Source: a phage. Taken from it: a DNA stretch of 47,489 nucleotides. Below the pieces are notes generated by a model. It did not search any database. It saw only the letters and a list, made by a program, of their open reading frames with translations, and was not told the DNA's origin. Of this stretch, positions 2-10,836 are shown one piece after another. Position 1 is the stretch's first letter, and every line of letters begins with the position of its first letter. Location of the stretch: NCBI GenBank assembly GCA_025699765.1, contig GCA_025699765.1_4134.1. One strand, 5' to 3'. The position numbers and the translations under genes were made by a program.

Positions 2-715
2 GAGGGGTCAAACTACTTCGAGACTAACAATAGATTCAGAGCCAATCAGTTTTTATGCCAGAAAACAACTATGGCTTATAACCAGATGTGGTCCGCTTCA
101 TGCTTTCAAGGAAATGCTTACACCGCTGATAGTGGTGCTGAAAACTATCAATCGCTTGTTGCTGGAACGTGCGACACTAGAGATAATGGATTCTTTGGCG
201 GCGTAGCTTTTGGCATGATGACTACGGGTAATAGTGAATGGCCCAGGGCACAAATATCAGTAGGTGTTCAAGATAGGGATGTAGCAGGCAATATTGGTCT
301 GCAAATGCATTTCAGGTTTATGGCTTCAGGGCAAATATCTTACTCTGGACCGCAATCGTCTGGAAGTTTCCAACAGGTTCCGGCATCTGACAGAAATATA
401 AAGCACAGCATAAAGGATGATGAATCAAGCATTGCATACAACAATATAAAATCAATGAGATTTAGGAACTTTATATTTAACGATGATGAGCAAGAAAGGG
501 TAAGGCGAGGTGTTATAGCTCAGGAGATAGAAGAGATCGACAATCTATATGTTAAGAGAAGGTTGTATGAGAGCCACGAGCTAAACGGGCCAAAAGTTGA
601 AAGGCTTGAGCTTGATACAACTCCTTTATTGCTTGACACTATGAGAGCTTTGCAGGATACAATAAAGAAAGTTGAAGAGTTACAAGAAGAGATAAAAATG
701 TTGAAGTCCAAATGA
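2..715 (+). CDS. Tail fibre, C-terminal fragment (5'-partial) with intramolecular chaperone-like domain
   Basis: Frame 2 is open from position 2, so the gene enters from upstream. The C-terminal ~130 aa (SDRNIKHSIKDDESSIAYNNIKSMRFRNF ... coiled-coil LQEEIKMLKSK) resembles the self-cleaving C-terminal chaperone of phage fibres/endosialidases. A hairpin terminator follows. Confidence 0.6.
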   Translation, partial: EGSNYFETNNRFRANQFLCQKTTMAYNQMWSASCFQGNAYTADSGAENYQSLVAGTCDTRDNGFFGGVAFGMMTTGNSEWPRAQISVGVQDRDVAGNIGLQMHFRFMASGQISYSGPQSSGSFQQVPASDRNIKHSIKDDESSIAYNNIKSMRFRNFIFNDDEQERVRRGVIAQEIEEIDNLYVKRRLYESHELNGPKVERLELDTTPLLLDTMRALQDTIKKVEELQEEIKMLKSK

Positions 716-721
716 TAAAAT

Positions 722-745
722 CCCCGCAATGCGGGGATTTTTGTT
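722..745. terminator. Hairpin (atccccgcaatgcggggat) plus T-run, bidirectional terminator between fibre and ssb
   Basis: Perfect 8-bp stem with 3-nt loop, flanked by an A-run and a T-run, between convergent genes. Confidence 0.5.
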
Positions 746-1157
746 AGAACGGGATATCATCATCGAAGGTTGATTGAGGATTTGGCTGTGGCTGTGATTG
801 CGTTCGTTGTTGTTGCTGCGGTGCTCGTTGTTGATTGCTTTGTCCTCGCTGACTAAATACCAACTTAGGGAAATCAGCAGCCTGCAATGAATTGTAAGTC
901 GTTCCGTTATGCTCACGGGATGAGATCTTCAACGTTTCGCAAGATACTGAAATTACCCGACCAACCTGAAACGCTTCGCGATACCAGTCAGCAAGACCAG
1001 GCTTTCCACCATCGCTAAAAAAGAATGTGTAGTTTGTGTATTCGCGATCGCCATCACGAGGCTTGTAGCTTTCTGCCAGTTCGATTATATAAGTATTCCC
1101 GCCATTACGTTCAAGAATCTTAGGTTCTTTTCGGATCTCGCCAGTGATAATATGCAT
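744..1157 (-). CDS. ssb: Single-stranded DNA-binding protein
   Basis: OB-fold-like N-terminus, Gln/Pro-rich linker and the acidic C-terminal tail DDDIPF typical of bacterial/phage SSB; AGGAGA ribosome-binding site upstream. Confidence 0.85.
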   Translation of the reverse strand: MHIITGEIRKEPKILERNGGNTYIIELAESYKPRDGDREYTNYTFFFSDGGKPGLADWYREAFQVGRVISVSCETLKISSREHNGTTYNSLQAADFPKLVFSQRGQSNQQRAPQQQQRTQSQPQPNPQSTFDDDIPF

Positions 1158-1203
1158 GATTTTCTCTCCTAAATTTTATGGGCGACCGAAGCCGCCCTGA
1201 TGA

Positions 1204-1851
1204 TTATTCGAAGTTGGTGATTGATTGAGATTGTACAGGCTTCGCGCTCGTTGCTTCAACCTGTTTTTTCTGTTCCGGTTGCGCTGGGCGAATGCCGCGA
1301 GCTTTGCCGATCTCAAATTTAGCCTTAAGTGCGTTGTAATGATCCTGAATGATTGATTTGCTCGCCGTGTCAGTTTGGCGGTAGGCGTTGGCCCATACAT
1401 CCTTCAGTGATTCGATATCTTCACACGCATCAAGTTCTTTCTTCCAGTCCTTGACAGATTTCACCGCAAGCTGCGCGTCGTCGTCACTTTGGCTAATTCC
1501 CAGCGCTGCGGCTAGAGAGTAGCGTCGCGCATACGTCATTGCAGAACCTACGCCTTGCGGATCGCGTTTTGCAATCGGCATCATCATGAAGAATTTGGCC
1601 CACTGCCCTGATTTGTGAATCAGCATAGTTTCAAGATGGAAAGTAGTTTCTGTACTGGTATCCAGCATTGATTGCAGGATCATGATATCGTTGTCGGTTA
1701 ACGCCGGACTGACTGCCGCCATCATTGCGTCAAGAGTTGCGTATGAATTTTTCAGGTGATTGTTTTTCGCGTCCTTTTTTGCCTTCGCGAATTTATTGCG
1801 AGCGTTGAACAGAGCCGGAAGGATTTCGTTTGTTTCTGGTGATAATTGCAT
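1204..1851 (-). CDS. erf: Erf-family single-strand annealing protein
   Basis: Motif GSAMTYARRYSLAAALGISQSDDD resembles the P22 Erf core (recalled from memory). Start refined to MQLSP with AGGAGA site; the track ORF begins 33 nt upstream. Confidence 0.65.
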   Translation of the reverse strand: MQLSPETNEILPALFNARNKFAKAKKDAKNNHLKNSYATLDAMMAAVSPALTDNDIMILQSMLDTSTETTFHLETMLIHKSGQWAKFFMMMPIAKRDPQGVGSAMTYARRYSLAAALGISQSDDDAQLAVKSVKDWKKELDACEDIESLKDVWANAYRQTDTASKSIIQDHYNALKAKFEIGKARGIRPAQPEQKKQVEATSAKPVQSQSITNFE

Positions 1852-1925
1852 CTTAACTTCTCCTGATTGGTGTATGAGGTGCATTATAACACCTCATTAA
1901 TTATTTGTTTAGCTATTTGTGCCGT

Positions 1926-2990
1926 TTACTTGTTTTGGTAGCGTACCCATGACGGCGTTTCAAGTTCAATCTCGCTTGCATCGCCAGCGTATCCAGGCCA
2001 AACATCCATTTCAGAGCAAGCCTTGTAAGTGTGGACTACGCTAATGTACTGACTGCGCCCGATCCTGATTTGCTCCATCGTCATACGATAAGCAAGGGCG
2101 ATGTAAGGCTCTTTTTTCTCCTGTGCCAGCAATCGAACTACGATCGGGATATCTTCCGGAAAGTCTCCTTCAAAAGCGCCAGCCTGGATTGCACGTCGTA
2201 GCAGGTCATGCTGCAAGGCCATTTTCAGGTAATATCCGTGATTGTATGCCAGTCGCGGGAACTCTAACGGGTTGGCGCTCATTGTAGTTTTGAAGTCAGT
2301 GATAATTAGCGCTTCAGGGAAAATAACGTCTTCAAATACAGGATCGCCGTTCTCATCATAACCAGTCAGCACTCGGCCTGGAACATTCTCTTTGTAGTCC
2401 AGATGGTCAAGACGAACCTTAACTTTGACGCCGGATATCTCACCGAAGATTGAGATCTCACGCTGCGCCGTTTTGCTGTTGATACACGCTTCATGATCGG
2501 GGTTCTGTTCAAGTATAGCTCTCATCTTCATGCAAGCATCATATTTATCAGCGTCAACCAGTTGCTTTCCTTCAGCGCGAGCCTCAGCTTCAGCAATAAG
2601 TTCAATAAGATATTGAACATTGAGATCTTCACCACAATCAACCATCATTTTGATGAGGTCAGGGTACTGCTTTCCTGATGTACCTTTCAGGCCGAATGAT
2701 TTTAATTTCGATGCAAGAGCGGCTTGTGACGTAATGAGATCCTTAAACTCTGACGGAGCCGGGCAACGGGCATACGATGCAGTAAACAGATCGCGACTCT
2801 CAAAGTTAGTATGCGACTGAGTACCAAATTCCAGCGCTTTAGTTGTCTCGTTCTTCTTGAATCGCCAGTTAGCCGGGCAAGTCTGATAGATTTCAGCAAG
2901 GCTAGATCCGCTTACATACTCCGCAGCCCAACCTTCATTGCTGTGATACTCGTCATTAGAAAGCTGACTTGATGTGAATACTTGGAACAT
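1926..2990 (-). CDS. Recombination exonuclease, PD-(D/E)XK (RecE/YqaJ-like)
   Basis: 354 aa with a D...ITDFKTT (D-x-K) nuclease motif; sits directly upstream of erf and ssb as in phage recombination modules; GGAG site before the ATG. Confidence 0.65.
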   Translation of the reverse strand: MFQVFTSSQLSNDEYHSNEGWAAEYVSGSSLAEIYQTCPANWRFKKNETTKALEFGTQSHTNFESRDLFTASYARCPAPSEFKDLITSQAALASKLKSFGLKGTSGKQYPDLIKMMVDCGEDLNVQYLIELIAEAEARAEGKQLVDADKYDACMKMRAILEQNPDHEACINSKTAQREISIFGEISGVKVKVRLDHLDYKENVPGRVLTGYDENGDPVFEDVIFPEALIITDFKTTMSANPLEFPRLAYNHGYYLKMALQHDLLRRAIQAGAFEGDFPEDIPIVVRLLAQEKKEPYIALAYRMTMEQIRIGRSQYISVVHTYKACSEMDVWPGYAGDASEIELETPSWVRYQNK

Positions 2991-3517
2991 TGCGTTTATC
3001 TCCTTCGTTTACGATGAATCCATTATAGCCATTAACAGCGTTTAGTCAATCGAATACATGTAATTGGTGTGTAATCGCGTGTCTATATTGCTCAAGTTAC
3101 AACCAGCATCAGCAGAATCAATGTCTTAAGTAGATTTTTATGCGCTGTCTATTGCGTAACACTTGTAACCGCTTTTTCTTAGAAATACAGAGATACCTAC
3201 AAATAGAATCCACATTGATTAAATTTTGAACATACATGATAGAAACTTGACGAATCAATCAAATCACCTGTTACACGATAGACAACTGTTACACAACAAT
3301 AATTATATATATAAAGCTAAAATTAAATATTATATATCTATATATATTATATAGAGTTTTTATCATATCTACCTGCGGTCGGATAGGGTCGATTTTGTAA
3401 CACCCCTTCCAGTGACAAAAATATACACCTGTTACACGAAAAATTTTGTAATCCAGCTATTGCAATAAAAGTAAATGCGACATACAATGCAATCACACTA
3501 ACGACGAGGACATACAA
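2991..3517. promoter_or_regulatory. AT-rich divergent control region with short direct and inverted repeats
   Basis: 527 bp non-coding stretch between divergent genes. CTGTTACAC occurs three times (about 3270, 3286, 3430), TGTCTAT twice, and there is a (TA)n-rich core at 3300-3360 containing tatatatattatataga, also found at about 32735. Confidence 0.45.
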
Positions 3518-3748
3518 ATGAAAAAGTTAATCACCATTATTGCTGCTGCATTCATCCTGACTGGTTGCGCTCAGAATCTTAAAAATGGAGACTGCGTCAC
3601 TTACGCTTACGGATCTTGCATGATGCGATTCGTTGACGGTAAGAAGGTTCCGGCTGGCGAAATCGATATGCGATTCAAAGGTCTGTCATCCGACGACGAT
3701 CAGGGTAACTTCAGCGGTAAGGTATCAATCAAAACCAAAGAGTGGTAA
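3518..3748 (+). CDS. Small lipoprotein, possible Cor/Llp-like superinfection-exclusion protein
   Basis: N-terminal signal peptide with lipobox LTGC (MKKLITIIAAAFILTGCAQ); 76 aa; lies next to the tail-tip gene, as for cor in phi80/N15 and llp in T5. Function inferred from size and position only. Confidence 0.5.
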   Translation: MKKLITIIAAAFILTGCAQNLKNGDCVTYAYGSCMMRFVDGKKVPAGEIDMRFKGLSSDDDQGNFSGKVSIKTKEW

Positions 3749-3750
3749 TT

Positions 3751-4707
3751 ATGGGACAAGGAATATACATAAACCTAAATGACGGTCGTCCAGCAATGGA
3801 GATAACCTCGGGACTTCGCGCCCCGTCATGGTGCGGACCAATACAAGCGGACGGGGTTGATTCATCTGGATCGGTTTTTGATTTTGGTCTGCAAATGAGT
3901 CCAGGATCTACCGCTTTTTGCCTTCCATCTCAGGCTATCTACATAGACGACATGTATTATATCCCGGAGGTGTATTATTTAACCAGCTTTCAGAAGGTTA
4001 ATGATTCAACAGGGAGAATAACGGTAGGTAATTTTAACGGTCATCGTGGAAGGAGAATGAGATTTTATGGAAACTGTTACGAAATCCTCCCAGCTCAGGC
4101 TGGAAATCAGGGGATGCTTGTTAGCGATTCAACGAACTTCGCGGCGATACCGAATAACGCCAGGTTGATGAGCGCGGCATTTGTTGGAGGTATCCAGGTT
4201 AACGGTCAGGCTCAGTTGCCAGTCCAGGGTGTTCCTTTCGGTATGTGGGATAACCCAAATGTAACACTGGAATCTGACGGGAATACAATATGGTGCAGAG
4301 ACGCAAACTATAACGGTATTGATGACGTTGGCGCGAGCGTATACGTTCAACTCGTAATATTTAATAACACTCCACCACCTCCCGGTCCGGGAATCACTAT
4401 GAGCAACCCTGCTGGTCAGATCGTTTTCTCAAGCGTTCGACGTCCTTTTGTTCTCGGCGGGACTATGGCGATAAATGACGGGTGGCAGTGGTGTGGTGGA
4501 TTTTTCCCAATACTAAGAACAGGTACGATATGTAGAGTTACAGGTGGATATAATAACATTCGATACAAGGGCGTGTGTATGAGCGGCGGTAACGTGAGAA
4601 GCGCCCCCGGAACAAGAGTAGGTAACTATTCCACCCAAAGCGGAGCGCGATTCCCCTTCAATATAAACATTTCAATGCCAATTCCTTTCACTCCAAACAT
4701 GTATTAA
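3751..4707 (+). CDS. Hypothetical protein, 318 aa, co-transcribed with the lipoprotein
   Basis: Long ORF starting 3 nt after the lipoprotein stop, with a Pro-rich PPPPGPG segment and no signal peptide. No family recognised. Ends at a bidirectional terminator. Confidence 0.5.
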   Translation: MGQGIYINLNDGRPAMEITSGLRAPSWCGPIQADGVDSSGSVFDFGLQMSPGSTAFCLPSQAIYIDDMYYIPEVYYLTSFQKVNDSTGRITVGNFNGHRGRRMRFYGNCYEILPAQAGNQGMLVSDSTNFAAIPNNARLMSAAFVGGIQVNGQAQLPVQGVPFGMWDNPNVTLESDGNTIWCRDANYNGIDDVGASVYVQLVIFNNTPPPPGPGITMSNPAGQIVFSSVRRPFVLGGTMAINDGWQWCGGFFPILRTGTICRVTGGYNNIRYKGVCMSGGNVRSAPGTRVGNYSTQSGARFPFNINISMPIPFTPNMY

Positions 4708-4710
4708 AAA

Positions 4711-4733
4711 AAAGGGGCCAGTCGGCCCCTTTC
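4711..4733. terminator. Bidirectional hairpin terminator (ggggccagtcggcccc)
   Basis: GC stem flanked by an A-run and T-rich sequence, between the convergent 318-aa gene and the J-like gene. Confidence 0.5.
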
Positions 4734-4735
4734 TG

Positions 4736-7700
4736 TTACCAGACACCAACAACCACTCGGCCCCCGTTAGGTAGGTTAACCGTGATCCCGTTATTGTTTA
4801 TCTGAACCGTATTGTTTGTCCCGTTGAATGCAAACGATCCGTTGTCTGCATACAAAGCACCCCTTACGGTTGCGTTCATGAAGTAAGCTGCACCATTCTT
4901 GTTAATATGCCATCCTTGATTTCCATCCCAATTGTTAGACTGAATCGCGTTACCAATCATGGCGTTAGTAATAAATCCATCCTTGATAATCGCGCTATTT
5001 AGAATAACCTGGCCATTCTCAACAACGAATGGGTACTGAGTCTGACCATTCATCCCTGTCATGATTGCAAATCGTGATGCCTCAAACAAAATCTGCGCCT
5101 TAACTGCTGCGCCTGAACCAATCAGAGACATAGCCATGCCTGCACTGTATTCCTGCCCATTATACTTAAGGCCCATCTTGACGCCGTACATTGCACCAGT
5201 CGAATCCGCATTGCTCCACGAATCAAGTTTTTGAGAAAGTGCTGCCTCATTATTCCCAAGCCTCGCGCTTAACGACAAGTCAGCTTGCGTTCTCGCCTCA
5301 GTCTCGTTTGCTATAGCCTCTCTGATATCAGTCAAACTTGCCTGGATATCATCACCAATCTCTGCCTTGAGTTGGTCAATTTCACGCGATAGCGCTCCAG
5401 TCTCAGTCGCTATAACTTCACGCAATTCGCTATTGCTTGCGCTAATCTGATCGTCAAAACTTGCCTTCAACTGCTCGATCGCCGTCACTCGCGCCTGCGT
5501 CTCATCAGCAATAAGTTTCAGTGATTTCGTGTACTCAGCTTTTCGTTTTCCGTTCTCCTTCTTCATGTAGATCGCGTCTTTATCATTGGCGAGCGCGTTT
5601 TCTATTGCTGCCTCTGCGTTAGCTGCGTTCTGCGCCGCGTTGTCTGTTGCGTTATCAACAAGCCACTCGTAACCCGGCGAGTTTTCGATATCGACAGAAA
5701 TCTCTCCGATGATATCGTCAACGTTTGTTGATGCCATACCTCTGACAAAATCAGTCCACTGAGACACGTTACCGATCCTGTCAACCGTCCTTACCCGATA
5801 CCACACAATATTCCCTCCAGGCATCGGTGAGTGATAATACTCATGCTGCGGGTACGGAATCAAAGAAAGCAAACTTGCGTTATCCACTGTTCCATCCGGT
5901 GACTGTTGCAACTCTGTATAGGCCGTATCTCCAGAACCATCAGAGAACCCCCATTTTGTACGGATACCAAAAACAACATCATCCGTAGCTGTAAGGTTAA
6001 TAGGTCGTCCCGGCTCACCTTGTTTACCCGTCAGCGTCGCAGCTACGATATTTGACCATCCTGAAGTCGTACCGGAACCAGCGACAGATCGAACGCGAAC
6101 CTGATAGTTGCCAGCGTAAATCCCTTCAACATAAACCTCCTTGTTTGCCGTCTGCGGGACGTTCTGCCAGTTGCCATTATCCTTTCGCCACTGGACGTCA
6201 TAGAAAACTGCGTACGGAACTTTATCCCAGCTAACAATCATCGTTTCTACGCTCATCCCCTGGACGATTCGTGATTCTGAGGACACTTGCACGTTTTCCG
6301 GTCTAGGGATCTGATCTGGTTCAACGATGCTAGTCGGTCGGTCGTCGATATTAACTCCGTAATCAATCTCATCGTACTTGTTAGGATTGTACTCCACCGC
6401 CGTGATTTTGTAGGTAAATTCCTCATCATCATCGCCCTTATCGATTTTTGTCACGACGTACTGCTGTAACGCAATGTCGGTGCGGTCGATAGCGAATACC
6501 GTGTTAGGCTTCACAGGAAAGCCAAAGCCAATGTTAACCTCTATAGTCTTACCATCCGCACTAACACTTGAGATTGTGCGCTTCACTGGCTTGCCATCTG
6601 GCTTATTTACGATAATAAAGTCACCAGCGCGTGCATCCACACGGAACGGCAAGAAAATCTGACTACCGGATACTTCGAGCAAGCGCCCTGATAGGTTCAT
6701 CGTTAAGTTACTTGACCAGAAGTTATCAGCTATTGCCACAACATCTCCGATTGTCGGGATCATGCCCTCAAGTCCGGTAGCGAAGTTTACCGTAGTGCTG
6801 CGGAGGTTAGTTTTCAGAATCCATCTCCCGCGTCGGTTAGCTTCACTTCGACGTGTGCACCCGATCGCTGTAATGCTCGTTACGTTATTCCCGAACCGTA
6901 GAGTTGCCTCTCTGTCGAATACTGGCTCAACGTCCTGCTGATACATGTTTTGTTCATCATCAAACATAACGTTGCACGTCGTGTACATACTTTTCTCGCT
7001 TGCGAACGTGTAGGAGAAGTCACCATTAACCACGTTGTCGTTAGTGAAGATGTACGCAGGTTCACGCGGCCTGTCGATGATTACCGAAATGCTTTCACCA
7101 TTCCAAAAGCTCATTCCACGGAAGATTGAGCAAATATCTCGAATCACCTTGTACGCATCAGTCTGTGACTGAATTATCACGTCGCAAAGGTAGCGAGGCT
7201 CAGTACCGCCTTTACCGTCAGGAACCATCTGATCACAATATTGCGCCGCCTCATATAGCGCCCATTTATCGACAGATATTCCAAGCTCTTTCTGATCAAG
7301 CCCATAACGCTGATTAATCATCAGGTCATAAAGTACCCAGGCAGGATTATTAGTCCACGCCTTCTTAAAAGTTCCATCCCAATTTCCGTTATAAGTTCGT
7401 GATTCTGGATCATAGTTTGACGGAACGTTTACAATCTTCCAGCGCTTACGAATTGAGATCGTAGGTAACTGGTTTGGGAACATCTTCGAATCGAACTCGA
7501 CGAAAAGAAGACCAGTCAGAGGGTAACGGAATTTGGCATCAATCACCTCGGCATAGCTCTTTACCTGAATCGCGTCAACAACGTTCGAGTCGTTAGAGTC
7601 TGGAGTTTTACGAACGACTCTGAATATCACCTGATTGTTGAAGTTAGGTAGGTTTACACGCCTGCTTCGATCGTAACCTGACATTGTTTTGCCTTCGATT

Positions 7701-8185
7701 ACATCGGTGAGCACCGTCTCAAACGAGCCGCCATCAACAGCTTGTTGCACCTCATACTCAACTCTTACGCCGTTTTTATCACCGTTGCTTTCAATTCGTA
7801 CTCCGCGAGGCATAAACATTTTGATACGGATTGCAGAAAGCGTTTTGTTGGTTACTGAGATCGTGTATGGGTTATCTGTAGTAACCTCACGGCTTACAGT
7901 TACCTCACTAGAGCTATCTTCCATCCCCTTGATATATTCCTGAGTCTGCGTCCCAGGCCTAAACTCTGCCTTTACTCCCTCGAAGTTAAATGAGCCATCC
8001 TCGTTTTGCACCGGGACTGAGTTAAACATCAACTGCTTTAGGCTGAATGTTTCGTCAATCTCGCCATCAGACACAGCTAACAGGATCTTGATTTTGTTGA
8101 TTGAGATTAGATTATCTTCCATCTCAACTGGCTTATGCGGCTTAGGTGAACCGCCTTTCGATCCGCTTATCACTTTTTGAATCAT
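4736..8185 (-). CDS. Tail tip / host-specificity protein (lambda J-like central fibre)
   Basis: 1149 aa; N-terminal two-thirds carries the conserved J-family core (NPAWVLYDLMINQRYGLDQ...), then a fibronectin-III-like region and a divergent C-terminal domain. Position after I/K/L/M matches lambda-like tail modules. Confidence 0.9.
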   Translation of the reverse strand: MIQKVISGSKGGSPKPHKPVEMEDNLISINKIKILLAVSDGEIDETFSLKQLMFNSVPVQNEDGSFNFEGVKAEFRPGTQTQEYIKGMEDSSSEVTVSREVTTDNPYTISVTNKTLSAIRIKMFMPRGVRIESNGDKNGVRVEYEVQQAVDGGSFETVLTDVIEGKTMSGYDRSRRVNLPNFNNQVIFRVVRKTPDSNDSNVVDAIQVKSYAEVIDAKFRYPLTGLLFVEFDSKMFPNQLPTISIRKRWKIVNVPSNYDPESRTYNGNWDGTFKKAWTNNPAWVLYDLMINQRYGLDQKELGISVDKWALYEAAQYCDQMVPDGKGGTEPRYLCDVIIQSQTDAYKVIRDICSIFRGMSFWNGESISVIIDRPREPAYIFTNDNVVNGDFSYTFASEKSMYTTCNVMFDDEQNMYQQDVEPVFDREATLRFGNNVTSITAIGCTRRSEANRRGRWILKTNLRSTTVNFATGLEGMIPTIGDVVAIADNFWSSNLTMNLSGRLLEVSGSQIFLPFRVDARAGDFIIVNKPDGKPVKRTISSVSADGKTIEVNIGFGFPVKPNTVFAIDRTDIALQQYVVTKIDKGDDDEEFTYKITAVEYNPNKYDEIDYGVNIDDRPTSIVEPDQIPRPENVQVSSESRIVQGMSVETMIVSWDKVPYAVFYDVQWRKDNGNWQNVPQTANKEVYVEGIYAGNYQVRVRSVAGSGTTSGWSNIVAATLTGKQGEPGRPINLTATDDVVFGIRTKWGFSDGSGDTAYTELQQSPDGTVDNASLLSLIPYPQHEYYHSPMPGGNIVWYRVRTVDRIGNVSQWTDFVRGMASTNVDDIIGEISVDIENSPGYEWLVDNATDNAAQNAANAEAAIENALANDKDAIYMKKENGKRKAEYTKSLKLIADETQARVTAIEQLKASFDDQISASNSELREVIATETGALSREIDQLKAEIGDDIQASLTDIREAIANETEARTQADLSLSARLGNNEAALSQKLDSWSNADSTGAMYGVKMGLKYNGQEYSAGMAMSLIGSGAAVKAQILFEASRFAIMTGMNGQTQYPFVVENGQVILNSAIIKDGFITNAMIGNAIQSNNWDGNQGWHINKNGAAYFMNATVRGALYADNGSFAFNGTNNTVQINNNGITVNLPNGGRVVVGVW

Positions 8186-8232
8186 GATGTTTACCTTTTT
8201 GTGCTATTTATCGGTGAACCCATTATACAGGC

Positions 8233-8258
8233 GAAAAAAAACCCGCGCAAGGCGGGTT
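8233..8258 (-). terminator. Rho-independent terminator (cccgccttgcgcggg + T8 on minus strand)
   Basis: Hairpin plus U-run after gene I. The same 22-nt sequence recurs at 10879-10900. Confidence 0.5.
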
Positions 8259-8262
8259 AATT

Positions 8263-8862
8263 TTAACTCATATCCTCGGCATAAGAACCTGCTGAGAAAG
8301 TTGCGCCACCTCCGGCGCGATATCCATACGGGACCGGGAGAGGGTATCCCGCCGCCGTCGTGTTGACAGCACCGCCGAACGCGTACGAAGGTTTATTCTT
8401 GCTTGATTGAACTTCAAAGTTTGCTCCACCCGGCTGCGGTGAAATCATTTGCATCACGCCGCCCAGCACCATAGCGCCGCCCATCATAAACAGAGACGAG
8501 GACATTGTGCCCATTAAAGCCAGAGATGCGCCGCCAGTATAGAATGCTGCAACCATTATTGCCGCGCCCAATACAACCTGAAATAGACCGCCTGACTTAG
8601 AGCCAGTTGGGATCGGGACGATTCTTATCTCTTTAGCGCATTTGAATTTTTCCTCTTCGTGGTGGCCTATGTTGATGCCATCCACAAATATTGCAAACTT
8701 GCTACGAGATCCTACCTCGCTTTGCATGTATTCTTTAAATCCGTCTACCTGACTGGATAGCGCCCGGATAGCTTCCGGGTAAGAGTCAACAGCGAATCTG
8801 TGAAAGACTCCGAAGCGTCTGCCAAGTGAACCGGATAGTTTGATTACTTTTACATCATTCAT
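8263..8862 (-). CDS. Tail assembly protein I-like
   Basis: N-terminal ubiquitin-like region and Gly-rich hydrophobic C-terminus, as in lambda gpI; sits between the K-like and J-like genes. Confidence 0.7.
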   Translation of the reverse strand: MNDVKVIKLSGSLGRRFGVFHRFAVDSYPEAIRALSSQVDGFKEYMQSEVGSRSKFAIFVDGINIGHHEEEKFKCAKEIRIVPIPTGSKSGGLFQVVLGAAIMVAAFYTGGASLALMGTMSSSLFMMGGAMVLGGVMQMISPQPGGANFEVQSSKNKPSYAFGGAVNTTAAGYPLPVPYGYRAGGGATFSAGSYAEDMS

Positions 8863-9593
8863 AATTTAAGATCCTTATGGCGAACAATTAAAACTGTGTG
8901 ATCCTGATACCAGCCGGAATAAATATCACGACGTGATAGCTTTCCGAATGCGTGATGCAAGATCTGATTATCACCCAGGTAAATCCCTGCGTGATTCCAT
9001 ACCGGAACATTTTGCCCTATCTGCATGATTACCATATCACCGAATGACGGATTATTCTGATCTGGAATCTCAACGAATCCATCTTGCTTGTAATAATCCT
9101 GATAGAGATTAATTCCATATTCCGGTTTCCACCATTCAAAATTCAACCTTCGATCGCGCAATTCTACGCCGTGCTCTTTGTGCCAAGCCATAACAAGACC
9201 GTAACAGTCAAATGAGCCTAACGACCACGGACGACCAATCAGGGGTAATTTCTCAGGCTTCACAAATCGCATATCTCCTTCCGGTACGCTAACAATAATC
9301 CAGGTCACCTCCATCTCATTACACATGCACGTATCGTGAGCGCTCGGTAGAGTTGTAGCCCCGTCTCCGGTGTGGCTGTGGACGATTGCGATCGTGGTTG
9401 AGTCTGCGTCGTCCTCAATGCATGCGTATTGCACTGCGTCCATCATGAAGTGATTTTCAGGATCGCGATGCACGTTATCAACGCGATGGTATTTTTGCAC
9501 GCGGCCCTTTTGGGTGACTACCCCGCAGCATTCGCGGGGGTATTCTTCTTGTGCATGAGTCATGATTTCAAGTTTAATTTTTGCGCTAATCAT
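8859..9593 (-). CDS. Tail assembly protein K-like (MPN/JAMM plus NlpC/P60 domains)
   Basis: JAMM-like motif HSHTGDGATTLPSAHD, then an NlpC/P60-like Cys/His region (CYGLV...H); gpK position. Confidence 0.8.
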   Translation of the reverse strand: MISAKIKLEIMTHAQEEYPRECCGVVTQKGRVQKYHRVDNVHRDPENHFMMDAVQYACIEDDADSTTIAIVHSHTGDGATTLPSAHDTCMCNEMEVTWIIVSVPEGDMRFVKPEKLPLIGRPWSLGSFDCYGLVMAWHKEHGVELRDRRLNFEWWKPEYGINLYQDYYKQDGFVEIPDQNNPSFGDMVIMQIGQNVPVWNHAGIYLGDNQILHHAFGKLSRRDIYSGWYQDHTVLIVRHKDLKL

Positions 9594-10057
9594 TTTCCGT
9601 GCCTCCAGGTAAAGCCATTTTTCATGTTAAATTCTTCCCTAGCCTTTACAGCCTCATCAAGTGAGTCATAGTAGCCTATATGAGTGTTTCCAGATGATAT
9701 CCTCCACTTTCCATTCCTGTATAAATTAACACCATTAAATCCAGAAGAATTTTTTGAGTTTTTCTTCTGGTTTTTTGCGTTAATGATAGCGTCAGCAAGT
9801 CTTAGGTTTTCTATTCTATCATCTCCAGCAATTCCATTTATATGATCTATAACCTTTCCTCCTGGTATAGATCCATTAAACATGGTCCAAATAATCCTGT
9901 GTCTGTAAAATCTTTCTCCATTTATTTTTACAATGACGTAGCCATCATTCCTTTTAGTTCCAGCCGATAAGCCGAGTAACCACGGCTTTCTCTTTGGCGC
10001 TAACTTGTAAAAAATCTCTCCGTCTCTATAAGAAAATAACTCAATGTAGTTAATCAT
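9590..10057 (-). CDS. HNH homing endonuclease with AP2-like DNA-binding domain
   Basis: HNH core (IDHINGIAGDDRIENLRLADAIINAKNQ) followed by an AP2-type segment (SGFNGVNLYRNGKWRISSG...GYYDSLDEAVKAREE). Inserted between the L-like and K-like tail genes; start refined to MINYIEL with a GAGG site. Confidence 0.8.
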   Translation of the reverse strand: MINYIELFSYRDGEIFYKLAPKRKPWLLGLSAGTKRNDGYVIVKINGERFYRHRIIWTMFNGSIPGGKVIDHINGIAGDDRIENLRLADAIINAKNQKKNSKNSSGFNGVNLYRNGKWRISSGNTHIGYYDSLDEAVKAREEFNMKNGFTWRHGK

Positions 10058-10836
10058 TGATTTTTCCTCTGTAGTGAAGCGACAGCGCAACCGCCAAAAT
10101 CCAGTTCATTGTTTGCTCCGAATCTCAGGCGGCAGGCCGTTACCGTACCTGGGCAGAAATCCAGAGAAGGATCATCTACCGGATTATTGTCTTTGTCAAA
10201 ATAACCGTTTTGCCCGTTGTATCCGCAGCCTTTCCCGGTTTTATACCATCCTCTTTGTGCAAAATAGCAAACGCTTTGCGTTAGTCGAGATGGTATCATG
10301 ATGCCATCCATATCATACGGAGACGTGAGATCGAAACGAGCGACACTCTTATCGACATAGCTCGGGCGTTCGATATAGTATACCAGTTTACGGTAAGCTC
10401 CATCAGCGATTGAGCCGTCAGGTTGAATTAAGTCCTTTTGAGTGATCCAGATTGTCACCTTCGCCTGCATCAATCCGTTATATGCACGAATCATTGCCGA
10501 CACTCTGCTATCAATATTTGCCACCGTTAATTGTGGTTTTGTAGCCTTGCCTGAACTGTCGAACGAGATCCCTGATATACCAAAAGGCCTCGCGCCGTAT
10601 TGCTCGCCACGGAAGGTGATTTCTTTCGGCGGCAGCGTTCCGGTTTGCTGGGCCTGCATGATTTCTTCTGGAGTGTACTGGATATTCTCGCCGTGAAATC
10701 TGTACACCTGAGCACCGAACTTACTACCATCAACTTCAATAAGGGTGATTATCTCGCCCGGATACAGTGATTGTAGGCAGTTGTGAAACAGGCTTCTCCC
10801 GCTTTCTTCATCATAAAGTTTTTTGTTTTCGCTCAT
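10054..10836 (-). CDS. Minor tail protein L-like
   Basis: gpL-like sequence with C-terminal Cys cluster (CPGTVTACRLRFG...GGCAVASL), consistent with the Fe-S site of lambda gpL. Start refined to MSENKKLY with AAGAGG site; the track ORF starts 57 nt upstream. Confidence 0.8.
   Translation of the reverse strand: MSENKKLYDEESGRSLFHNCLQSLYPGEIITLIEVDGSKFGAQVYRFHGENIQYTPEEIMQAQQTGTLPPKEITFRGEQYGARPFGISGISFDSSGKATKPQLTVANIDSRVSAMIRAYNGLMQAKVTIWITQKDLIQPDGSIADGAYRKLVYYIERPSYVDKSVARFDLTSPYDMDGIMIPSRLTQSVCYFAQRGWYKTGKGCGYNGQNGYFDKDNNPVDDPSLDFCPGTVTACRLRFGANNELDFGGCAVASLQRKNQ

What the first reader, a model, noticed from the sequence alone, without database searches (positions are those of the whole stretch)
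3518..4707. Two-gene plus-strand insert between recombination and tail genes: small lipoprotein plus unknown 318-aa protein
The two genes are transcribed opposite to the tail block, from the AT-rich control region, and end at a bidirectional terminator abutting the J-like tail tip gene. The 76-aa product has a textbook lipoprotein signal (LTGC lipobox). Small lipoprotein genes next to receptor-binding genes in T5 (llp) and phi80/N15 (cor) block the phage receptor to exclude superinfection. The co-transcribed 318-aa protein, with its poly-proline segment, has no recognisable family and could be a partner in exclusion or an extra receptor-binding or host-range factor.
Basis: partly seen in the sequence, partly recalled or inferred. 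Interest (0 to 1): 0.55.

Follow-up and report, generated by a model that had tools for sequence, protein, structure and literature searches.

The report
Phage LptD-binding protein plus exclusion lipoprotein
These two genes are the already described host-recognition cassette of T1-like phages that attack the essential outer-membrane protein LptD: a tail-tip receptor-binding protein, and a small lipoprotein that blocks the same receptor from the periplasmic side. The finding is real but ordinary.

Summary
A 76-aa lipoprotein gene (3518-3748) and a 318-aa gene (3751-4707) lie on the + strand. They run from an AT-rich intergenic region to a bidirectional hairpin terminator that abuts the gpJ-like tail-tip gene.

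Neither protein is an orphan. The 318-aa protein is a full-length DUF6453 member (E 6e-127). It is homologous to the Oekolampad receptor-binding protein solved on LptDE (PDB 9RPT chain C, E 6e-67), and that chain is the only significant Foldseek match of its AF2 model (TM 0.90). It is 67.5% identical to the RBP of OzMSK, a phage shown experimentally to depend on LptD.

The lipoprotein belongs to Pfam PF24052. It is homologous to Rtp45, the superinfection-exclusion lipoprotein solved on the periplasmic face of LptDE (9RPS chain D, E 1e-9), and keeps its disulfide cysteines. It is 68% identical to the Oekolampad lipoprotein.

The lipoprotein is not Cor or Llp. It shares only the signal peptide with T1 Cor. 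Compared with T1, a cassette (3569 to about 4931) replaces T1's FhuA-type module. The cassette holds the mature lipoprotein, the RBP, the terminator and the last 63 codons of gpJ.

The near-identical SH6 locus has already been predicted in print to target LptD. Verdict: already known, low interest.

The parts
3000..3517 (.). AT-rich divergent intergenic/control region. It forms the 'left arm' shared by Tunavirus phages whatever their receptor cassette.
   Evidence: 32.8% GC. Window 3150-3568 is 91-96% identical in 65 phage records, including both Cor-type phages (T1, IME18, JMPW2, SH2) and LptD-type phages (SH6, Shfl1). Promoter-like sites on the + strand include 3460-3488 (9/12 match), but such sites are not enriched over shuffles. 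The SA32RD annotators placed a + strand promoter roughly 70-95 bases upstream of the lipoprotein ATG.
3518..3568 (+). Signal peptide and lipobox (MKKLITIIAAAFILTG|C) of the lipoprotein. Nucleotide homology with T1 cor ends exactly after the Cys codon.
   Evidence: The DNA alignment with T1 cor is near-identical up to TGC at 3566-3568 and unrelated afterwards. blastn homology with T1 ends at 3568. The peptide KKLITIIAAAFILTGC is identical in T1 Cor.
3518..3748 (+). Gene for the 76-aa Rtp45-type superinfection-exclusion lipoprotein. It is predicted to be anchored in the outer membrane, to face the periplasm and to bind LptD.
   Evidence: PF24052 Phage_lipoprotein, E 6.9e-25. phrog_4281. PDB 9RPS chain D (Rtp45), E 1.1e-9. 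68% identity to Oekolampad bas18_0026 and 38% to Rtp45. The mature part is 44% identical to Rtp45 over the aligned 34 aa, E 7e-11. Cys26 and Cys34 align with the Rtp45 Cys30-Cys38 disulfide (PMC12685063).
3751..4707 (+). Gene for the 318-aa DUF6453 receptor-binding protein, predicted to bind LptD and to be carried on the gpJ tip.
   Evidence: PF20051, E 6.2e-127. PDB 9RPT chain C (Oekolampad RBP bound to LptDE), E 6e-67 over residues 1-318. The AF2 model has pLDDT 83.9 and pTM 0.83. Its only significant Foldseek PDB match is 9rpt_C, E 6e-19, TM 0.90. It is 67.5% identical to the OzMSK RBP. No transmembrane segment is present.
4712..4731 (.). Bidirectional intrinsic terminator hairpin shared by the convergent RBP operon and gpJ.
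   Evidence: Fold energies are -17.9 and -19.5 kcal/mol, z = -3.7 and -4.3. It is flanked by A8 and a T-rich run. Terminators are annotated on both strands at the same spot in SA32RD.
4736..4931 (-). The last ~63 codons of gpJ: a C-terminal tip segment that co-varies with the RBP type and is the presumed docking adaptor for the RBP.
   Evidence: blastn homology with T1 gpJ resumes only at 4932. The last 63 aa are 20% identical to T1, but 80% to OzMSK, 66% to Rtp and 53% to Oekolampad. The preceding 137 aa are 88% identical to T1. bioRxiv 10.64898/2026.04.02.716166 reports GpJ C-terminal domains specific to each RBP type.
4736..8185 (-). gpJ-like central tail fibre / tail-tip protein (1149 aa).
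   Evidence: Phage_Tail_Tip, FNIII-A_GpJ and Phage-tail_3 domains. phrog_31, central tail fiber J.

Best explanation
The locus is the LptD-type 'RBP locus' of a T1-like phage (Tunavirus, SH6/Shfl1/SA32RD group).

The 318-aa DUF6453 protein is the terminal receptor-binding protein. It is presumed to dock through its conserved base (N-terminus and the loop at residues 113-135) onto the last ~60 residues of the gpJ tail-tip protein. It then inserts its tip loops into the extracellular opening of the LptDE lipopolysaccharide translocon, which commits the phage to DNA ejection.

The 76-aa product is a Sec/Lsp-processed lipoprotein. It is sorted to the inner leaflet of the outer membrane. In the infected cell it binds the periplasmic side of LptD and pushes a hairpin into the barrel lumen. 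This displaces extracellular loop 4, so the RBP of incoming or released phages can no longer bind. That gives superinfection exclusion and protects progeny from being lost on cell debris.

Shown here: homology, predicted fold, synteny, the conserved disulfide cysteines and the cassette boundaries. Inferred from relatives: LptD binding, the exclusion mechanism and docking onto gpJ.
For: RBP:
- Full-length DUF6453 match, E 6e-127.
- phmmer E 6e-67 to 9RPT chain C across residues 1-318.
- The AF2 model (pLDDT 83.9) has 9rpt_C as its sole significant PDB match: E 6e-19, TM 0.90, rmsd 2.8 A.
- 67-69% identity to Rogue1, AHP24 and OzMSK, and 38-42% to Oekolampad, FritzHoffmann, TheodorHerzl and Bas84. 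These phages are shown or predicted to depend on LptD (PMC8594841, PMC13035648, PMC12685063, bioRxiv 10.64898/2026.04.02.716166).
- The one RBP contact residue named in the paper's main text, Gln299, aligns with window Gln296 (PMC12685063).

Lipoprotein:
- PF24052, E 7e-25.
- Rtp45 (9RPS chain D), E 1e-9.
- 68% identity to the Oekolampad lipoprotein.
- Cys26 and Cys34 align with the Rtp45 disulfide.

Synteny:
- The order lipoprotein, then RBP, converging on gpJ, is identical in Oekolampad, OzMSK and Rtp.

Cassette:
- T1 homology is absent only in 3569-4931.
- The gpJ C-terminal 63 aa follow the LptD-type phages, not T1.

Literature:
- The SH6 locus is 96.0% identical in nucleotides to window 3000-5000. 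Its RBP is listed as predicted LptD-dependent in PMC13035648.
- Family membership at >30% identity correlated with receptor in every tested case (PMC8594841; bioRxiv 10.64898/2026.04.02.716166).
Against: - There is no experimental receptor assignment for this phage or, in what I read, for any Tunavirus with this allele. SH6 is only 'predicted'.
- The Sfin-1 paper concerns a phage 91.3% identical in nucleotides across window 3000-5000, from a group whose RBPs are mostly 95-99% identical to the window's. It reports adsorption that is sensitive to periodate and insensitive to proteinase K, and names LPS O-antigen as the receptor. Its LC-MS/MS virion table lists gpJ (CDS 67) but not CDS 65 or 66, which by position and numbering are presumably the lipoprotein and RBP homologues. 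Both points are compatible with a glycan primary receptor for the lateral fibres plus a low-copy tip RBP, but they give no positive support.
- The tip loops of the family are variable (Black et al.), so a shift of specificity cannot be excluded from sequence alone.
- In the sections of PMC12685063 that I read, exclusion by Rtp45 is argued from structure, not from plating assays.
Confidence: 0.88

Rival explanations
1. Same protein families and architecture, but this Tunavirus allele of the DUF6453 RBP has drifted to another outer-membrane receptor, and its lipoprotein blocks that receptor instead of LptD.
For: Identity to the structurally characterised Oekolampad RBP is only 42%. The conserved residues of the family lie in the base rather than the receptor-binding tip (conservation profile). 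The hosts of the closest relatives are mostly Shigella.
Against: - 67.5% identity to the OzMSK RBP, whose infection is abolished by LptD loop deletions.
- Rtp44/Bas01 alleles at about 39% identity still use LptD.
- Across two systematic studies the family-to-receptor correlation had no exception.
- The cryo-EM complex used Shigella flexneri LptDE, which is >99% identical to E. coli LptDE.
- The co-inherited lipoprotein is 68% identical to that of Oekolampad.
Confidence: 0.07
2. One reading: a Cor/Llp-type lipoprotein that blocks FhuA (or another TonB-dependent receptor), with the 318-aa protein as a non-virion partner in exclusion or an accessory host-range factor.
For: The PHROG Cor family hit has E 6e-6. 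The signal peptide and upstream region are identical to those of T1 cor. The position next to the receptor-recognition genes fits.
Against: - The Cor hit covers residues 1-33 only.
- The mature part has no collinear similarity to T1 Cor but matches Rtp45 at E 7e-11.
- No Llp match was found in the PDB sequence search at E<=1.
- T1's FhuA-type genes ST31 and ST32 have no counterpart in the window.
- The 318-aa protein is a full-length homologue of a solved receptor-binding protein.
Confidence: 0.02
3. The database annotation: the 318-aa protein is a 'membrane protein' or moron (RefSeq, PHROG 1265) that acts in the host envelope rather than in the virion.
For: phrog_1265 is labelled 'membrane protein, moron'. 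RefSeq records call the homologues 'membrane protein'. The protein is not listed in the Sfin-1 virion proteome.
Against: - There is no signal peptide and no hydrophobic segment. The maximum Kyte-Doolittle 19-residue mean is 0.99, and no window exceeds 1.6.
- The predicted fold is an all-beta sandwich equal to the soluble RBP of 9RPT.
- RBP_Oeko was purified as a soluble protein and binds LptDE from the outside.
- The Sfin-1 table lists only proteins with assigned functions and includes holin, helicase and primase, so a protein's absence from it carries little weight.
Confidence: 0.03

Closest known systems
Oekolampad (Bas18) RBP bas18_0025 and lipoprotein bas18_0026 (PDB 9RPT/9RPW/9RQI; Dunbar et al. 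PNAS 2025, PMC12685063)
   Same: The gene order and orientation are the same: lipoprotein, then RBP, converging on gpJ. The RBP is 42% identical over its full length with the same predicted fold. The lipoprotein is 68% identical. The gpJ C-terminal adaptor is 53% identical.
   Different: The phage backbone differs (Dhillonvirus against Tunavirus). The tip-loop sequences diverge. In Oekolampad the locus is flanked by the lateral tail fibre gene rather than by recombination genes.
Rtp rtp44/rtp45 (Rtp45 bound to LptDE, PDB 9RPS) and AugustePiccard (Bas01)
   Same: The same two families and the same synteny. The Rtp45 disulfide cysteines and the core motif VPAGE(V/I)D.R are conserved.
   Different: Identity is lower: RBP 39% and lipoprotein 38%. 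The C-terminal third of the lipoprotein differs. Bas01 additionally needs NupG, through a gpJ domain; no such domain was looked for here.
OzMSK / Rogue1 / AHP24 RBP (Rogunavirinae-like; Black et al. 2025, PMC13035648)
   Same: The closest RBP relative with experimental evidence of LptD dependence: 67.5-68% identity. The last 32 residues of gpJ are identical.
   Different: The lipoprotein there is of the Rtp45 subtype, 34% identical to the window's. A DNA methylase gene lies upstream in the same operon direction.
Shigella phage SH6, Shfl1 and Escherichia phage SA32RD locus (Tunavirus)
   Same: Essentially the same locus: 94.8-96.3% nucleotide identity over window 3000-5000. In SA32RD the RBP is 99.1% and the lipoprotein 100% identical. 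The SH6 RBP has already been modelled and listed as predicted LptD-dependent.
   Different: Only point differences. GenBank and RefSeq still label the proteins 'hypothetical', 'membrane protein' or 'lipoprotein'.
T1 receptor module: ST32, ST31 and cor (ST30), FhuA type
   Same: The same genomic slot between gpJ and recE. The promoter region and lipoprotein signal peptide are the same (95% nucleotide identity). The logic is the same: recognition genes plus an exclusion lipoprotein.
   Different: The proteins are unrelated. In T1 the candidate recognition genes are co-directional with gpJ and only cor is on the opposite strand. The mature Cor is unrelated. The last 63 aa of gpJ are 20% identical. 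The receptor is FhuA.
T5 pb5 / Llp (FhuA)
   Same: A functional analogy: a separate RBP attached non-covalently at the tail tip, plus a small periplasmic OM lipoprotein that prevents RBP binding from the inside.
   Different: There is no sequence or fold relationship. Llp works by long-range allostery in a TonB-dependent transporter, whereas Rtp45 works by steric displacement of LptD loop EL4.

Membership tests
LptD-binding RBP family of small siphophages (DUF6453 / PF20051; RBP_Oeko, Rtp44, OzMSK_038) | Full-length sequence homology to characterised members | tested here: met
   PF20051 E 6.2e-127, residues 4-295 on profile positions 1-291 of 291. 9RPT chain C E 6e-67, residues 1-318 against 1-321. 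42%, 39% and 68% identity to the Oekolampad, Rtp and OzMSK RBPs.
LptD-binding RBP family of small siphophages (DUF6453 / PF20051; RBP_Oeko, Rtp44, OzMSK_038) | Double beta-sandwich fold of the solved RBP | tested here: met
   The AF2 model is all-beta with pLDDT 83.9 and pTM 0.83. Foldseek against the PDB gives 9rpt_C at E 6e-19, probability 1.00, TM (target-normalised) 0.90; the next hit has E 0.54.
LptD-binding RBP family of small siphophages (DUF6453 / PF20051; RBP_Oeko, Rtp44, OzMSK_038) | Position directly downstream of gpJ, convergent with it, and preceded by the exclusion lipoprotein gene | tested here: met
   The window layout equals that of Oekolampad, OzMSK and Rtp.
LptD-binding RBP family of small siphophages (DUF6453 / PF20051; RBP_Oeko, Rtp44, OzMSK_038) | Matching LptD-type C-terminal tip segment of gpJ | tested here: met
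   The last 63 aa are 80%, 66% and 53% identical to OzMSK, Rtp and Oekolampad, against 20% to T1.
LptD-binding RBP family of small siphophages (DUF6453 / PF20051; RBP_Oeko, Rtp44, OzMSK_038) | Physical binding to LptDE and LptD-dependent infection | not testable with these tools
   This needs plating on lptD loop mutants or an in-vitro binding assay. Only relatives have been tested.
LptD-binding RBP family of small siphophages (DUF6453 / PF20051; RBP_Oeko, Rtp44, OzMSK_038) | Presence in the virion at the tail tip | not testable with these tools
   The Sfin-1 LC-MS/MS table does not list CDS 65 or 66, presumably the two homologues, but the table looks incomplete.
Rtp45-type superinfection-exclusion lipoproteins (PF24052 Phage_lipoprotein) | Sequence homology of the mature domain to Rtp45 and SE_Oeko | tested here: met
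   PF24052 E 6.9e-25, residues 3-76. 9RPS chain D E 1.1e-9. Mature part against mature part: E 7e-11. 68% identity to bas18_0026.
Rtp45-type superinfection-exclusion lipoproteins (PF24052 Phage_lipoprotein) | Lipoprotein signal peptide with lipobox and no inner-membrane retention signal | tested here: met
   LTG|C at residues 14-17, followed by Ala-Gln. LPAM_1 E 0.004. Sorting to the outer membrane is inferred from the +2 rule.
Rtp45-type superinfection-exclusion lipoproteins (PF24052 Phage_lipoprotein) | Conserved cysteine pair equivalent to the Rtp45 Cys30-Cys38 disulfide | tested here: met
   Window Cys26 and Cys34 align with the pair in Rtp45, OzMSK and Oekolampad. The disulfide is described in PMC12685063.
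Rtp45-type superinfection-exclusion lipoproteins (PF24052 Phage_lipoprotein) | [quoted passage not shown] | not testable with these tools
   This needs expression in trans with plating and adsorption assays, or co-purification with LptDE.
Cor superinfection-exclusion lipoproteins (T1, phi80, N15; FhuA) | Similarity of the mature protein to Cor | tested here: not met
   The PHROG Cor hit is limited to residues 1-33. The mature parts share only an 8-residue, non-collinear match (E 0.043). Nucleotide identity with T1 cor stops at the lipobox Cys codon.
Cor superinfection-exclusion lipoproteins (T1, phi80, N15; FhuA) | Association with FhuA-type recognition genes (homologues of T1 ST31/ST32, N15 gp22/gp23) | tested here: not met
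   T1 carries ST32 and ST31 between gpJ and cor. Window 3569-4931 has no homology to that T1 region.
Llp (T5; FhuA) | Sequence similarity to Llp | tested here: not met
   A PDB-wide phmmer search at E<=1 returned only Rtp45 and a chance Kunitz-domain hit. An FhuA-Llp structure has been published (PMC9586334, listed); that its chains are in the searched PDB copy is assumed, not checked.

The most novel reading that the evidence does not exclude
The receptor-specificity unit of Tunavirus phages may be a precisely bounded three-part cassette: the mature exclusion lipoprotein, the RBP, and the last ~63 codons of gpJ. Its left junction falls exactly after the lipobox cysteine codon.

On this reading, the promoter plus signal peptide on one side and the body of gpJ on the other act as conserved homology arms. 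Recombination, possibly by the adjacent phage RecE/Erf system, could then swap receptor, matching immunity and tail adaptor in a single event. If so, the junction would define a ready-made design rule for retargeting T1-like phages between FhuA and LptD.
Probability: 0.4. Interest if true: 0.3.

Novelty: already known. Interest (0 to 1): 0.12.

Why it matters
It has practical value only.

- It predicts that this T1-like phage infects fhuA (tonA) 'T1-resistant' laboratory strains, because it targets the essential LptD translocon. Black et al. met and solved the same problem for OzMSK.
- GenBank and RefSeq labels for these two genes ('hypothetical', 'membrane protein', 'lipoprotein', sometimes 'Cor') should be updated to LptD-binding RBP and LptD-type exclusion lipoprotein.
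- The sharply defined cassette boundaries may help anyone engineering receptor swaps in T1-like phages.

No open question is resolved by this locus.

Tried and rejected
- Cor/Llp membership was rejected. The similarity to Cor is confined to the signal peptide, and there is no Llp hit.
- The 'membrane protein/moron' label was rejected on hydropathy and fold.
- The consensus terminator scan did not report the hairpin at 4712-4731. Direct folding of both strands shows it clearly.
- The consensus promoter scan gave no enrichment over shuffles, so I do not place the promoter.
- The Sfin-1 virion proteomics paper was consulted to see whether the RBP homologue is a virion protein. The table omits it but is not reliable enough to count either way.
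- The search for 'DUF6453' in the literature gave one unrelated paper. The relevant literature uses 'RBP locus' and 'LptD' instead.
- Loci L002 and L003 were not available to the Python sandbox. T1 was re-fetched as L005 for the blastn comparison.
- I did not model the lipoprotein. The authors of PMC12685063 report that AF3 models of Rtp45 and of its complex with LptDE are wrong.
Full report
**1. The observation**

ORF 3518-3748 encodes a 76-aa protein beginning MKKLITIIAAAFILTG|CAQ, a textbook lipobox. An ATG at 3751, three bases after the first stop codon, opens a 318-aa ORF ending at 4707. The PPPP run is at residues 208-211. The upstream intergenic region 3000-3517 is 32.8% GC against 45% for the window.

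Between the stop at 4707 and the stop of the convergent gpJ-like gene (4736-8185, - strand) lies a GC-rich hairpin at 4712-4731. It is flanked by A8 on one side and a T-rich run on the other. It folds at -17.9 kcal/mol (+ strand) and -19.5 kcal/mol (- strand), and no shuffle out of 200 folds as well. The simple terminator scanner missed it. The annotators of the 96%-identical phage SA32RD marked terminators on both strands at the same place.

Upstream on the - strand are a RecE-like exonuclease, an Erf annealing protein and an SSB. The description is therefore confirmed. The promoter is not: sigma-70-like matches are no more frequent than in shuffled sequence.

**2. What the window is**

Window 3000-5000 is 94.8-96.3% identical to Escherichia phage SA32RD and Shigella phages SH6 and Shfl1. 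It matches 70 phage records in all, every one from T1-like phages of Escherichia or Shigella. The window is a Tunavirus (Drexlerviridae) genome.

**3. The 318-aa protein**

It is not an orphan. It matches Pfam DUF6453 (PF20051) end to end with E 6.2e-127, and PHROG 1265. Against the sequences of all PDB chains it has one hit: 9RPT chain C (also in 9RPW and 9RQI), E 6e-67, residues 1-318 on 1-321. That chain is the receptor-binding protein of phage Oekolampad (Bas18), solved by cryo-EM on the Shigella flexneri LptDE lipopolysaccharide translocon (Dunbar et al., PMC12685063).

An AF2 model built on 52 family members has pLDDT 83.9 and pTM 0.83 and is all-beta. Its only significant Foldseek match in the PDB is 9rpt_C: E 6e-19, probability 1.00, target-normalised TM 0.90. 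The next hit has E 0.54.

tblastn finds the protein in 337 phage records:
- 67-69% identity: Rogue1, AHP24 and OzMSK. In OzMSK the gene is annotated as the LptD receptor-binding protein on experimental grounds.
- 38-42% identity: Oekolampad, FritzHoffmann, TheodorHerzl and Bas84.

These are the phages for which LptD was found or predicted as terminal receptor (PMC8594841; PMC13035648; bioRxiv 10.64898/2026.04.02.716166).

The protein has no hydrophobic segment. The 'membrane protein' label in RefSeq and PHROGs is therefore not supported.

**4. The lipoprotein**

Pfam places it in PF24052 'Phage lipoprotein family', E 6.9e-25. In the PDB it matches 9RPS chain D, E 1.1e-9. That chain is Rtp45, the exclusion lipoprotein of phage Rtp solved on the periplasmic face of LptDE.

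It is 68% identical to the Oekolampad lipoprotein bas18_0026 and 38% to Rtp45. Its Cys26 and Cys34 align with the Rtp45 Cys30-Cys38 disulfide. The mature parts alone align at E 7e-11.

The resemblance to Cor is confined to the signal peptide:
- The PHROG Cor hit covers residues 1-33.
- The peptide KKLITIIAAAFILTGC is identical in T1 Cor.
- The mature parts share nothing collinear.
- No Llp chain was retrieved at E<=1.

**5. Synteny**

The order lipoprotein gene, then RBP gene, converging on gpJ, is the same in Oekolampad (bas18_0026, bas18_0025, bas18_0024), OzMSK and Rtp (rtp45, rtp44, rtp43). This is the 'bona fide RBP locus' downstream of gpJ that Maffei et al. described. Its alleles match terminal receptors without exception. 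A 255-phage screen confirmed it, with four unrelated RBP families for FhuA, BtuB, LptD and YncD.

**6. Cassette boundaries**

T1 carries a different module in the same slot: ST32 and ST31 co-directional with gpJ, then cor on the opposite strand. blastn of the window against T1 gives 91% identity over 717-3568 and 85-94% over 4932-9594. There is nothing in between.

The left junction is exact. The two sequences are nearly identical through the TGC codon of the lipobox cysteine (3566-3568) and unrelated from the next base on. Window 3150-3568 is 91-96% identical in 65 Tunavirus-type records, whether the lipoprotein that follows is Cor or the LptD type. T1 (95.2%) is closer here than SH6 (93.5%) or Shfl1 (90.9%).

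The right junction lies inside gpJ. The 137 residues before the motif QSNNW are 88% identical to T1. The last 63 residues are 20% identical to T1, but 80%, 66% and 53% identical to OzMSK, Rtp and Oekolampad.

The exchanged unit is therefore the mature lipoprotein, the RBP, the terminator and the gpJ tip. This agrees with the report that GpJ C-terminal tip domains are specific to the RBP type.

Within the RBP, the most conserved stretches are residues 1-30 and 121-140. These overlap the only low-confidence parts of the model, residues 1-20 and 113-135. Two published observations fit this:
- Black et al. note that invariant residues map to the base of the RBP.
- In the cryo-EM map the tail-proximal part of RBP_Oeko is disordered.

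I infer that these stretches form the docking surface for the gpJ tip. That is inference, not a result.

**7. Mechanism**

By homology, the 318-aa protein sits on the gpJ tip and binds the extracellular side of LptD. RBP_Oeko inserts deeply into an open state of the barrel, with about 1,700 A^2 of interface.

The lipoprotein is exported, lipidated and sorted to the outer membrane; it has Ala at +2 (established Lol sorting rule). It binds LptD from the periplasm between LptE and LptM. Its hairpin pushes extracellular loop 4 outwards by up to 20 A, so the RBP can no longer bind.

Homology, fold, synteny and cassette structure are shown here. Binding, exclusion and virion location are inferred from relatives.

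**8. Evidence that does not fit neatly**

The Sfin-1 paper describes a close relative. It attributes adsorption to LPS, because adsorption was sensitive to periodate and resistant to proteinase K. Its LC-MS/MS table lists gpJ (CDS 67) but not CDS 65 or 66, presumably the lipoprotein and RBP homologues.

A glycan primary receptor for the lateral fibres is expected for this group and does not exclude LptD as terminal receptor. The proteome table lists only proteins with assigned functions and includes holin, helicase and primase, so the omission carries little weight.

No Tunavirus with this allele has, in what I read, an experimentally confirmed receptor. SH6 is listed as 'predicted'.

**9. Comparison and novelty**

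The locus is a member of the LptD-type RBP/exclusion module by every feature testable in silico (see the membership table). It fails the tests for Cor and Llp, and it is only functionally analogous to T5 pb5/Llp.

Near-identical loci are already in GenBank. The family has solved structures. The SH6 allele has been modelled as an LptD binder in print. The finding is therefore already known.

The modest additions here are:
- the exact cassette junctions, in particular the break right after the lipobox cysteine;
- the observation that conserved but poorly modelled RBP segments and the gpJ tip co-vary.

**10. Verdict**

It is wrong on family, receptor and orphan status. Confidence in the LptD RBP plus exclusion-lipoprotein explanation is 0.88. 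Interest is 0.12.

Noticed in passing
L007 3941-4222 (Escherichia phage LorandFenyves Bas91, PQ850614 63023-63304); also ES17, PGN6866, SU7 and Bas92: Gordonclarkvirinae/Kuravirus podophages of about 67-77 kb carry an Rtp45-like lipoprotein...[40 protein letters not shown].... It is 43% identical to Rtp45, E 1e-19. The gene sits in a cluster of small early genes with no DUF6453 RBP nearby. The BASEL-completion paper gives no LptD link for these phages. Either they use LptD as a terminal receptor, or they carry the lipoprotein to shut out LptD-dependent siphophages.
   Followed up: partly
window 3150-3568: The promoter region, 5'UTR and lipoprotein signal peptide are conserved at 91-96% nucleotide identity across Tunavirus phages. 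This holds whether the downstream lipoprotein is Cor (FhuA type) or the LptD type. The homology break falls exactly after the lipobox Cys codon.
   Followed up: yes
window 9590-10090 (- strand): An HNH_3 homing-type endonuclease ORF (166 aa, E 7.6e-17) sits between the gpK-like gene (JAB + NlpC/P60) and the gpL-like tail gene. T1 has no counterpart at this position: the blastn alignment has a gap over 9594-10051. Rtp has an HNH gene (rtp40) between the equivalent tail genes.
   Followed up: partly
window 71-715 (+ strand): This is the C-terminal part of a lateral tail fibre with a Peptidase_S74 intramolecular chaperone domain, probably the glycan-binding primary receptor fibre. The listed ORF begins at an internal ATG; the T1-like lateral tail fibre gene presumably runs off the start of the window and continues near its other end.
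   Followed up: no
Phage records (e.g. MG065663 'Campylobacter phage A134', MH230177 'Aeromonas phage SD04', OQ221563 'Acinetobacter phage NJ01', MT360682 'Vibrio phage Vc1'): Several records attributed to non-enterobacterial hosts carry this RBP and/or lipoprotein. Identities to the window are 38-42% for the RBP and 57-67% for the lipoprotein, similar to the values for coliphage alleles. Either LptD-type modules reach far beyond Enterobacteriaceae, or the host labels of these records are unreliable.
   Followed up: no
Homologous-protein hits P0025-P0079: Many DUF6453 proteins at 41-46% identity lie on megabase-sized Citrobacter, Salmonella and E. coli chromosomal contigs, and on one plasmid. 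The RBP family is therefore also common in prophages, as in the temperate phages SPN3UB and vB_SosS_Oslo.
   Followed up: no
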